Positions 36,101 to 39,100 of a stretch of 64,000 nucleotides of DNA are shown one piece after another (the stretch's first letter is position 1; each line of letters starts with the position of its first letter). The stretch is from Tubulanus polymorphus (Eukaryota > Animalia > Nemertea), in assembly GCF_964204645.1 (NCBI RefSeq), contig NC_134025.1, positions 31,166,299-31,230,298 on the forward strand, given 5' to 3'. The translations under genes were made by a program, and so were the position numbers. A model generated the notes under the pieces. It was not told the DNA's origin, searched no databases, and was given only the letters and a program-made list of their open reading frames with translations.

Positions 36101-39100
36101 CGTATATCAGATATCTCAGCTAAAGGCAGTTTGTATCTCAATGTTTCATATCATGTGATTTTGCGAATAAAAAACGATGAATTGTAACATAATTCAGGCT
36201 TTACAGTCGCCGAGTTCAGTTCTAACCACATTTTAATGGTAGCATTAAGTCACTTTGTCACGCATATAGGACAAAAAGACAAGTGTACTGGTTCTGGTTA
36301 GCACTGGTTAGCACGCTTGCTTTCTGCGTACGAGACCCGGGTTCGATACCCGGAGAGTGCGATCATTTCATTATCACCTTCCAAATCGTTACCGGAAATG
36401 AATCGAGTTTTATCAAAGTATATACTGTGCATATAGTTAGTACCATTCAGAGAAAGATTTCTTTTTAACATTTTCTATTAAATTTTTGAAAACTTTACAA
36501 ATTGGATTAAGTTTTAACTTCCGATTGTATCAACTTAAACTGATTCTATCAAGTTTTTACGATTGTACAAAAGTTTCTACTTCAAGATTCCAGCCCCATT
36601 GTCCTACATTAGGACATGTTGTTCTAGAAAGCCTCGTTAATCTCCTGTGTATATTAACCATATGAACTGAAACGTCTTCTCTCTGACTTTGACGTCGTAA
36701 GACCCCTAACTTTATTTACATACATCTAAAAGTCACCAGAAATAAAAATCTAAAAAGTCTGGTGCGAATACATTTTCACGCTGAAATGCCGCCGAAGCCG
36801 CTTTCAGCGACATATAATTGATTTCTATAAACTATTGCCATGGAAACACGATGTTAGAAGTCTCATAATCTGAGTGCGCGAATTTTGAAATCTTCTTCTT
36901 GTGACTTTCACCGATAAATCATTATTCTCTGATCGTCGGTGAATTTCAGCAGTTTCTCAGAAAGATTAAAAACTTCCGCCTCGACAAACTATAAATTCGA
37001 ATATCTGCGGGACAATTTCCATAAAATATACCAAAACATTTATCATTTCCAGCAGGATAATCCGCGAAGTACTGACAGACAACGTGAGGATTAATCTTTT
37101 TAAATATTCCCTAGGATTTTGATTACGTCACAAGCGGAGCTTACGCCGTGACGGTACAACGCTTGGTCCGCACAGGAAGTTACTTTTCTCATCTCTATTT
37201 TTATAATTGTTCTTGTTGAAAAATTGTAAAAAATTGAATTGCTTGTTTTTTCTCTCATTCAAGTTCTGTATATGAAAAAGCCTATCACGTGCCTTCCGTG
37301 AAATAAATTTGAACTTGAACCAGAACGGGTTCGAAACCTCCAGAATTTCTCTATTTCGGCGGCCTATTGTACGTAGTTTGGGTTCGAGTCCTAGATTTTA
37401 AGAGTGTTTTTGTTTTTTAGAATTCCATAAAAAACCGGTTTTATCAAGTTCGGTTCTTCGTGAAGATAAAAAAATCTTTAGAATTTCGGGGTATCATAAT
37501 AAAGTTCACAATACATTGGTATAACTTCAATGCACGATTAGGGACTAGATTTATGGATAGTTCCGAGTTTTTGCTCATACTCAGTATCAGGATGTGGTTT
37601 CATTATTAATTGACGACACTATTTTGTTAATACGAGTTTTGTATCTTGTTTACAGGGCATTATTTTTTATGATGCAATAAGGATTGCGATGTCGCCGCGT
37701 CTGTAGCTGCCGGGAATTTAACGACACTACAGTTTCTCTCGGTACAAGGTCCCGCGATAAAAAGCTTCATACGAATAAAAACGTTTTATTATAAGCAAGA
37801 ATTTGTATCAATAAAAAAGTCCTTTTTCATTGGAACAACACCTTACTGTTGTTGGTACAAAGTCCTCTTTTTTCATTAAAAACACTCTTACATTTTCGAC
37901 ATTTTATGTCATGAATTTCCTGAAGATGACAATTAGGATCTAGTGAAATAAGTGAGTCATTACATTGATGAAACACTTAGAGTCCGTGTTGTGACGATAT
38001 ATAGAGATTTCTACACTGATATAACGAGAAAAAGATGCAGTCCAAAAAGTTTCCTTTCAGCTATCATTGCAATTTATTAATTCGATGTTAACTCAACCAA
38101 CTTCAGGAATACAGTATTCCTGAAGATGACTATTAGGATTAAGTCGAAACGTTGAATAAACTACACTAGCTCAAGGAATACAGTATTCCTGAAGATGACT
38201 ATTAGGATTAAGTCGAAACGTTGAATAACCTACACTAGCTCAAGGAATACAGTATTCCTGAAGATGACTATTAGGATATAGTCGAAACGTTGAATAAACT
38301 ACACTAGCTCAAGGAATACAGTATTCCTGAAGATGACTATCAGGATATAGTCGAAACGTTGAATAAACTACACTAGCTCAAGGAATACAGTATTCCTGAA
38401 GATGACTATTAGGATTAAGTCGAAACGTTGAATCAACAAATTGTTAGCTTAAAGAGACTTTTCGGATTTCATCTCTCTCGTTATATCAGAGTGCGATCCT
38501 CAATAAATGGCCTTAATAAATTATAAGCTTGAAGGAAATTTTTTGGATTTGTTGTCTTATCAGTATTAGATTCTCTTTGTTGCCCAAAACTGAAACGCAC
38601 CTATCTTTGTTGACAAAATAAAATAGAGCGATATTTGTCTCCGAAGAGCCCGTGGATCCGGCCCGTGTCACTGGCTGATGATAATCATACCCCGCTATTC
38701 TTTTGTAGCTGAACAAGCGTTATTCGAAATTACTTTCAATGGTGCTAATATAATATTAACGCACCCTATATTCACCCTTCGTGATATCGATAGAAAATAA
38801 TAATCCCTCTTTCTTCAATAGTGTCTGACAGAAACTACAGGTGGTTTCTATGGAATTGATACCTGGGTCACACAGACAGGAAAAGACAGAAGATCACGAT
38901 ATAACCTGCTGCCTGAACGACGCCTACGTGTGTCATCAACATCATGCATATACTATAGCTAGCTGTCTATAAAGTCGTCTTATTTCTTATAAGTTTGAAA
39001 TGTCACCGAGCTCTAATTACACATAAAGTCTCTCAAACAATTCATCCCCCGTCTCTATTTAATAATACGTGAATACATGATGGTATTTAACGGTACAAAT

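What the first reader, a model, noticed from the sequence alone, without database searches (positions are those of the whole stretch)
38115..38434. Array of five minimal hammerhead ribozymes with a very short 69-nt period in PDE3 intron 1
Seen: each unit reads UAUUC-CUGAAGA-U-GACU(AU)-loop-(AU)AGUC-GAAA-CG-UU-GAAUA. That gives stem I, the CUGANGA core, stem II, GAAA, a palindromic AACGUU in place of stem III, a UH cleavage site (GUU) and the complementary stem I strand. Units 3 and 4 extend stem II to GACUAU/AUAGUC. Known: minimal type I hammerheads with a palindromic stem III occur in Penelope-like elements and metazoan retrozymes and are thought to cleave as dimers between tandem copies. Inference: a plus-strand transcript (antisense to PDE3) could self-process into 69-nt monomers or circles, shorter than the retrozyme units I know of. 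An AGGAAUAC-A-GUAUUCCU palindrome overlaps stem I and C3 in every unit and could act as a competing off-conformation.
Basis: partly seen in the sequence, partly recalled or inferred. Interest (0 to 1): 0.85.

Follow-up and report, generated by a model that had tools for sequence, protein, structure and literature searches.

The report
Penelope-end hammerhead array with masking palindrome
The five hammerhead-ribozyme motifs are real and belong to a very common short repeat that likely comes from the end of a Penelope-type jumping gene, but a palindrome in every unit is predicted to lock the ribozyme off, so this is likely a copying product of a known kind rather than a source of 69-base RNA circles.

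Summary
In detail: 4.8 copies of a 69-nt unit, each a complete minimal type I hammerhead, antisense in a PDE3 intron; 0 of 200 shuffled windows gave one. The motif has every sequence hallmark published for the hammerheads of Penelope-like elements (PLEs). Most copies start at stem I; roughly a quarter, by rough depth, carry the same head-to-tail joint. That is the known PLE tandem-plus-inverted layout. Folding predicts that a trimmed unit can form the double hammerhead (3 kcal/mol above the minimum), whereas the palindrome puts it 14-31 kcal/mol out of reach in the array. Mixed unit variants and the terminal tail argue against copying from one 69-nt circle. Units of 51 bp upward are already in print, and this scan met similar arrays in other genomes. 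No RT gene, cleavage or circle was shown. A new member of a known kind.

The parts
38105..38173 (+). Unit 1: palindrome 38105-38121, stem I 38115-19/38154-58, core 38120-26, bulged U 38127, 4-bp stem II, GAAA 38146-49, ACGU 38149-52, predicted cut after 38153, 25-nt linker
38174..38242 (+). Unit 2 (4-bp stem II, rare TA variant; one private change in the linker); predicted cut after 38222
38243..38311 (+). Unit 3 (6-bp stem II; has the family's majority letters at the two variable places); predicted cut after 38291
38312..38380 (+). Unit 4 (6-bp stem II, one loop change); predicted cut after 38360
38381..38433 (+). Unit 5, ends 4 nt after its predicted cut site (38429); 4-bp stems I and II
38434..38527 (+). 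Terminal tail, present only after the last unit; a diverged form of the family tail
   Evidence: (loose ends at 38164 and 38178)
37976..38112 (-). Inverted, decayed copy of unit plus tail (stem II and GAAA lost); its first 12 nt (38101-38112) are an exact mirror of 38114-38125, with the fold-back axis at 38113
   Evidence: 70% over 120 columns, E 7e-8; score without the palindrome 76 against a maximum of 43 in 1000 shuffles
37917..37948 (+). Sixth, broken hammerhead copy (core kept, stem II and ACGU damaged)
20040..20125 (+). Dispersed relative with the same tail-to-palindrome joint, one internally deleted unit and a terminal tail
   Evidence: (31 of 32 identical, E 6e-9)
3984..4300 (.). Cluster of family fragments in head-to-head and direct orientation
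14647..15083 (.). Head-to-head pair of family fragments, the + copy starting at the cut site, plus a distal-tail fragment
31606..31699 (-). Dispersed tail fragment related to the inverted arm
39389..40393 (-). Host PDE3-like first coding exon seen (ORF 39341-40393, splice donor after 39389); context, not part of the element
   Evidence: (a contig of run X3 stops at 39389 with 138 of 459 letters unaligned)

Best explanation
The array is five head-to-tail copies of a minimal hammerhead unit flanked by an inverted copy and a one-sided tail, and it likely is the end piece of a Penelope-like retroelement that the element's reverse transcriptase copied in this layout, with the ribozyme predicted to be held inactive by the palindrome in each unit. 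Steps. (1) Shown: the unit has the published PLE hammerhead anatomy and belongs to a high-copy family, mostly short dispersed copies from stem I to a common tail. (2) Shown: tandem plus adjacent inverted copy plus tail at one end, the layout described for PLE insertions. (3) Inferred: the palindrome is a scar of copying; new DNA folded back at the start of stem I, then jumped to the tail at the shared AGGAA, which created the 69-nt joint. (4) Inferred: RNAs of the form (unit)n-tail were then spread by a PLE enzyme in trans, since the same joint stands at 20042 and at many other loci. (5) Inferred: DNA-level duplication, conversion or mixing of templates gave the present order of variants (TA, TA, AT, AT, TA) inside older flanks. 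(6) Predicted: in a plus-strand transcript AGGAAUAC pairs with stem I and core C3-U4, so cleavage would be slight without a helper protein; PDE3 pre-mRNA carries the other strand and has no intact ribozyme here.
For: Anatomy: unpaired base between A9 and G10.1, G10.1-C11.1, palindromic 15.2-16.2, 4-5 bp helix I are the features listed by Cervera and de la Pena 2014. Layout: inverted arm, head-to-head fragments at 3984-4169 and 14647-14800 match Craig et al. 2021. Abundance: 4 other clusters in the window plus one marginal 21-nt hit, 0 hits in the reversed-window control; 1584 of 951,646 contigs of run X1 lie on one unit plus flank, 764 only partly; 213 contigs have unrelated 5' flanks starting at 38112-38116 and 171 go on into a shared tail (best-supported rows only, 230 not shown). 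Summed depth is 9e5 against 31 in the flank; this is no copy number, my bounds are about 1e3 to 3e4. Joint shared: 20042, go-back joints with periods of 63-72 nt at single-locus depth (tables 5, 5c; my arithmetic), joint share at least 0.23 of peak depth in X1 (rough). Masking: double hammerhead 3.1 kcal/mol above the minimum for trimmed unit 3, 19-23 with the palindrome arm; 13.6-30.9 above the ensemble in 8 of 8 native dimer constructs; native linker 22.8 against 12.8+-3.9 for shuffled linkers, 4 of 300 as bad. Against one circle: the T at 38140 of units 1, 2, 5 is about 1% of family depth while units 3, 4 carry the majority letters, and a circle gives no terminal tail.
Against: No RT or GIY-YIG match in 36 of the 65 ORFs of 33.5-44.5 kb that I scanned, and no genome is held, so the autonomous partner is inferred from motif and layout. 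No target-site duplication identified. The flanking arms are 70% alike while the units are 96% alike, so one insertion event does not explain the locus. Contigs of X3 (RNA by its stop at a splice donor) and X5 (kind not shown) bridge the 69-nt joint, and the X5 contig is 99 nt, the length a closed 69-nt loop gives at word size 31; multimers or circles are therefore not excluded. Energy models ignore tertiary contacts, Mg2+ and proteins, shuffled linkers also score 12.8, and the Anolis PLE hammerhead cleaved only with its protein (Frangieh 2024), so a predicted off state may be switchable.
Confidence: 0.65

Rival explanations
1. Active ultra-short retrozyme: multimeric transcripts self-cleave (perhaps with a PLE protein opening the palindrome), 69-nt monomers circularise and are copied back as arrays.
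For: All 5 cores intact; the joint is common in the family; contigs of X1, X3 and X5 bridge it with 31 or more letters on each side, X4 with 28 only; the nested double hammerhead is geometrically possible at 69-nt spacing; protein-assisted cleavage is known for one PLE.
Against: Palindrome dominates every fold, including the released monomer; mixed variants and a terminal tail; by rough depth the joint share is the same in X2 (same sample as X3) as in DNA run X1, 0.25 against 0.235; published minimal dimers cleave poorly and 1 of 9 Xenopus dimers cleaved.
Confidence: 0.15
2. One-off local minisatellite: a single PLE stump was duplicated by DNA slippage at the AGGAA microhomology at this place only.
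For: The window is full of local tandem repeats (101 TRF rows); the order of variants needs DNA-level events or mixed templates; TCAAGGAA/TTCAGGAA microhomology sits at the joint.
Against: The same joint stands at 20042 and in many contigs elsewhere; the linker inside the array differs clearly from this locus's own tail, so the array is not a copy of its own last unit.
Confidence: 0.12
3. Fold-back DNA transposon (MITE-like) or rolling-circle DNA element with internal tandem repeats, the hammerhead being a passenger.
For: About 130-nt inverted repeats bracket the array.
Against: The inverted arm is itself a copy of unit plus tail starting at the fold-back axis, and most family copies have no such arms; the layout is the one described for PLEs.
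Confidence: 0.05
4. Co-opted regulator of PDE3 (antisense self-cleaving RNA or intronic hairpin).
For: Position in the first intron seen.
Against: Wrong strand for the pre-mRNA; one of very many copies; units nearly identical to the family majority, so young; flanks decayed.
Confidence: 0.03

Closest known systems
Minimal type I hammerheads in pseudo-LTRs of metazoan Penelope-like elements (Cervera and de la Pena 2014, PMC4209133; abstract, results, discussion and part of the methods read)
   Same: Core, unpaired base before stem II, G10.1-C11.1, palindromic 15.2-16.2, short helix I, thousands of mostly single dispersed copies, nearby copies on opposite strands.
   Different: Stem II is 4-6 bp, not 7-8; five copies at 69-nt spacing; a linker that out-competes stem I; no PLE ORF shown.
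Animal non-LTR retrozymes as PLE derivatives (Li, Clavereau, Pollet 2026, bioRxiv 10.64898/2026.07.22.740005; parts 1-3 of 5 read, supplements not seen)
   Same: Two or more tandem units with a complete hammerhead; unit length inside their 51-972 bp range; unit number inside the seven or fewer of 75% of families.
   Different: Invertebrate host (lineage not determined); inverted arm and one-sided tail; predicted masking.
Canonical metazoan retrozymes of coral, mussel, axolotl (Cervera and de la Pena 2020, PMC7229834; passages read)
   Same: Tandem low-GC repeats with one type I hammerhead each.
   Different: Those are 170-400 nt, carry canonical hammerheads, cleave efficiently and give abundant circles; none of this is shown here.
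Complex PLE insertions (Craig et al. 2021, PMC8557442, passages read; Frangieh et al. 2024, PMC11167929, main text parts 1-2 of 4 read)
   Same: Partial tandems, adjacent inverted 5'-truncated copy, 30-40 nt tail at one end; reverse transcription starting inside the RNA without homology could give repeated units.
   Different: No coding part left; PLE clade not assignable.

Membership tests
PLE-type minimal type I hammerhead | CUGANGA core, GAAA, UH site | tested here: met
   5 of 5 units; triplet is GUU
PLE-type minimal type I hammerhead | Unpaired base between positions 9 and 10.1; G10.1-C11.1 pair | tested here: met
   U38127, G38128-C38145 and equivalents; feature
PLE-type minimal type I hammerhead | Palindromic 15.2-16.2, no monomer helix III, 4-5 bp helix I | tested here: met
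   ACGU in 5 of 5; helix I 5,5,5,5,4 bp
PLE-type minimal type I hammerhead | Stem covariation within the genomic family | tested here: inconclusive
   Family sequences not obtainable. In 16 metagenome loci (9 distinct motifs, other families, 3 bp fixed by my pattern) 8 of 9 pair at the first free stem II position, P 0.002: supports the class, not this family
PLE-type minimal type I hammerhead | Self-cleavage as a dimer | not testable with these tools
   Predicted feasible when trimmed, masked in the array
EN+ Penelope-like element insertion | Linked RT and GIY-YIG ORF | tested here: not met
   No such Pfam match in 36 of 65 nearby ORFs scanned; partner elsewhere not testable. So: a non-coding derivative, not an element
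EN+ Penelope-like element insertion | Partial tandem with adjacent inverted truncated copy | tested here: met
EN+ Penelope-like element insertion | Tail at one end only | tested here: met
   Tail after unit 5 and after the 20042 copy, absent between units
EN+ Penelope-like element insertion | Target-site duplication or defined insertion site | tested here: inconclusive
   None among the 20 largest of 48 direct-repeat families shown (minimum 14 nt); shorter ones not formally tested
Non-LTR retrozyme (definition of Li et al. 2026) | At least two consecutive tandem units with a complete hammerhead | tested here: met
   their extra free-energy filter was not rerun
Non-LTR retrozyme (Cervera and de la Pena 2020) | 170-400 nt unit with a canonical hammerhead | tested here: not met
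   69 nt, minimal type
Non-LTR retrozyme (Cervera and de la Pena 2020) | Abundant circular and linear monomer RNA | not testable with these tools
   Only contigs available; they show the joint but not strand, ends or circles
Rfam hammerhead families | Covariance-model match | tested here: not met
   No hammerhead family at E<=10 in 36000-41000

The most novel reading that the evidence does not exclude
The 69-nt unit is a self-propagating mini-retrozyme with a built-in safety catch: the palindromic linker keeps the hammerhead off until a Penelope protein opens it, releasing 69-nt monomers or circles that are copied back into thousands of genomic sites. It would be far smaller than the 170-400 nt retrozyme circles shown so far and a natural protein-gated ribozyme switch.
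Probability: 0.1. Interest if true: 0.7.

Novelty: new member of a known kind. Interest (0 to 1): 0.3.

Why it matters
As a relic it is one more example of how PLE ends turn into short hammerhead arrays. It has some use: a high-copy, homogeneous family with solo, head-to-head and tandem forms is a good place to study how retrozymes are born, and the 50-nt trimmed unit against the 69-nt native unit is a cheap paired test of the open question whether minimal PLE hammerheads need a protein to cleave. If 69-nt circles exist, the size floor for retrozyme RNAs drops more than twofold.

Tried and rejected
No genome held, so no genome-wide catalogue. Rfam: no hammerhead match. Run search: no RNA holder listed; 5 of 6 runs were laid, X6 was not. 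X3, X4 and X5 give no cover of the unique intron flanks and X2 one 151-nt contig at depth 2; this does not show that the locus is silent. X4 and X5 do not cover the PDE3 exon either, so their kind is not shown; their repeat proportions look more like X3 than X1, a hint only. Depth ratios X3/X1 (family 0.086, two neighbouring repeats 0.016 and 0.38, exon 0.70) and the depth of the 69-nt joint (555 in X3, 171 in X1) point in opposite directions and are not measures of expression; not used as support. Viral pattern scan: 35 loci, 2 of 35 with stem II of 4 bp or more, none with both stems; read as chance. Metagenome scan: 16 single motifs, none tandem, none of this family beyond the motif. No open frame through the array in 6 of 6 frames. 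No tRNA head in the window. Earlier findings by sequence: none. Lunse et al. 2017 and Arkhipova et al. 2017 are not held; the first is known to me only through review passages. A report on this unit or on a masking palindrome was not seen in 4 paper searches; the host species is unknown, so this is a weak negative, and the unseen supplementary tables of Li et al. 2026 may list similar short families.

Full report
Observation. The array is as described: 38105-38437, period 69, 4.8 copies, 96% matches. Each of 5 units reads UAUUC-CUGAAGA-U-stem II-GAAA-CG-UU-GAAU(A); stem II is 4 bp in units 1, 2, 5 and 6 bp in units 3, 4; stem I is 5 bp, 4 bp in unit 5. Four columns differ among units. A strict descriptor finds these 5 and no other on either strand, and 0 hits in 200 shuffled windows. 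Rfam has no matching hammerhead model at E<=10. The host gene is PDE3-like on the minus strand, so the ribozyme strand is antisense to it. The window is from an animal with many minisatellites (101 TRF rows); I did not determine the lineage.

Class of motif. Cervera and de la Pena 2014 (PMC4209133; results and discussion read) list for PLE minimal hammerheads an unpaired base between positions 9 and 10.1, G10.1-C11.1, palindromic 15.2-16.2 and a 4-5 bp helix I; all are met. They found no cleavage by monomers and low cleavage by dimers. A pattern scan of metagenome contigs gave 16 loci with 9 distinct motifs of the same build, all single; 8 of 9 pair at the first stem II position that my pattern left free, with different pairs (P 0.002). 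These are other families and support the class only. The looser viral scan gave 35 chance-like loci.

The left flank is an inverted, decayed copy of unit plus tail (70% over 120 columns, E 7e-8; score 76 without the palindrome against a maximum of 43 in 1000 shuffles). Its first 12 nt mirror 38114-38125 exactly, so the palindrome centre at 38113 is a fold-back axis. A tail follows unit 5 only. Four more clusters of family fragments lie at 3984-4300, 14647-15083, 20040-20125 and 31606-31699, plus one marginal 21-nt hit at 8388; the reversed-window control gives 0. Two clusters are head-to-head. The copy at 20042 has the same tail-to-palindrome joint (31 of 32 identical). Craig et al. 2021 (PMC8557442; passages) describe this layout for PLE insertions: partial tandems, an adjacent inverted truncated copy and a tail at one end. 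No RT or GIY-YIG match was found in 36 of 65 nearby ORFs scanned, and no genome is held.

The family in public runs. Six coded runs hold the stretch or part of it; five were laid. X1 is DNA (one 2613-nt contig spans intron and exon at depth 28). On one unit plus left flank, 1584 of 951,646 X1 contigs were laid, 764 only partly; 213 have unrelated 5' flanks beginning at 38112-38116 and 171 continue into a shared tail (best-supported rows; 230 not shown). Summed depth is 9e5 against 31 in the flank. The tool warns that this is no copy number, and overlapping contigs inflate it; my bounds are about 1e3 to 3e4. The family majority has the 6-bp stem II: A at 38140 in 99% and T at 38141 in 80% of depth, so units 3 and 4 are typical and units 1, 2 and 5 carry a rare variant. 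Go-back joints give periods of 63-72 nt at single-locus depth (tables 5 and 5c, my arithmetic; 15 of 29 joints shown), and at least about 0.23 of peak depth runs across the joint (rough). So the tandem form is recurrent, unlike the one-off stutters noted by this scan in other genomes (unchecked notes).

RNA. X3 is RNA by inference: a contig stops exactly at the donor site 39389 with 138 of 459 letters unaligned. Contigs of X1, X3 and X5 bridge the 69-nt joint with 31 or more letters on both sides; X4 has 28. The X5 contig is 99 nt, the length that a closed 69-nt loop gives at word size 31, though the mismatch columns for it are ambiguous and the kind of X5 is not shown. Tandem units are thus present in at least one RNA run, from some locus; contigs cannot tell strand, ends, multimer or circle. 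By rough depth the joint share is the same in X2 (same sample as X3) as in X1 (0.25 and 0.235), while the listed 69-nt joint is deeper in X3 than X1 (555 and 171); neither is a measure of expression.

Folding. At 69-nt spacing a nested double hammerhead is possible, but it lies 13.6-30.9 kcal/mol above the ensemble in 8 of 8 native dimer constructs. Unit 3 trimmed to 38251-38300, as most dispersed copies begin, folds with stems I and II in its minimum structure and the trans double hammerhead is 3.1 kcal/mol above the minimum; with the palindrome arm upstream or downstream the gap is 19.1 or 23.1; trimmed unit 1 has 8.2 and unit 5 with its own tail 25.1. The native linker costs 22.8 against 12.8+-3.9 for shuffled linkers, 4 of 300 as high. 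Palindromes of two units pair at -20.6 against -1.1 for stem I strands, and the released monomer keeps the palindrome hairpin. Limits: no tertiary contacts, ions or proteins are modelled; Frangieh et al. 2024 (PMC11167929) found that an Anolis PLE hammerhead cleaves only with its protein, that uncleaved RNA is the main template, and that copying starts inside the RNA without homology.

Mechanism. Shown: motif, family, layout. Inferred: a PLE reverse transcriptase made the fold-back at the start of stem I and jumped to the tail at the shared AGGAA, creating the joint; (unit)n-tail RNAs were spread in trans; later duplication, conversion or template mixing gave the order TA, TA, AT, AT, TA inside older flanks. 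A single 69-nt circle would give identical units and no tail. Unexplained: arms 70% alike around units 96% alike, with the young sequence ending 4 nt after the last cut site; a young block may have entered an older copy (the review PMC6765202, passages, says PLEs tend to insert in or beside earlier copies). Predicted: little cleavage from this array, and none in PDE3 pre-mRNA.

Known and new. Li et al. 2026 (bioRxiv 10.64898/2026.07.22.740005; parts 1-3 of 5; supplements not seen) report retrozyme units of 51-972 bp, 75% of families with at most seven units, a PLE terminal-repeat origin, and cleavage in 1 of 9 tested dimers. The array meets their tandem definition, but not the 170-400 nt canonical type with proven circles (PMC7229834, passages; PMC7761336, passages). 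It works like a PLE end piece; it is not a PLE (no ORF) and is not shown to be a circle-forming retrozyme. What is particular is the masking palindrome in a recurrent tandem form, not seen in 4 paper searches. Verdict: new member of a known kind, interest 0.3; novel case (protein-gated 69-nt retrozyme) probability 0.1, interest 0.7.

Noticed in passing
window 37986-37993 (minus strand of the inverted arm): An AC-rich stem-loop, itself a middle-copy repeat (also near 4200, 15052, 31606; depth peak), lies 107-114 nt past the start of stem II; the Anolis PLE starts copying in an AC-rich stem-loop 111-118 nt past the same point. May be coincidence.
   Followed up: partly
window 38153: The GUC variant of the cut triplet (recalled as the better substrate) is 1.7% of depth in X1, 3% in X2, 37% in X4 (4 contigs) and 28% in X5 (1 contig); numbers too small to weigh.
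   Followed up: no
window 14728-14775 and 4012-4062: Direct copies in head-to-head pairs begin at or within a few bases of the predicted cut site, as copies of a cleaved RNA would; two cases only.
   Followed up: partly
window 40900-41300 and 41760-41810: Two other high-copy repeats upstream of the PDE3 exon; not identified.
   Followed up: no
window 51135-51992 (-) and 53779-54660 (+): Two divergently oriented, apparently single-exon TALE-class homeobox ORFs (Homeobox_KN E 5e-14 and 6e-14).
   Followed up: no
window 45900-48800 (-): Exons of a Tub-domain gene (weak Pfam match E 0.001; TULP4-like by recall) upstream of PDE3 on the same strand.
   Followed up: no
window 37870-37915 (-): A short stem followed by GAAA that resembles a broken hammerhead of another family, next to a duplicated 20-nt tail-like piece.
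   Followed up: no
window 38404-41022: Run X1 carries another allele: 18 other letters and several small gaps, including a 9-nt deletion at 40321.
   Followed up: no
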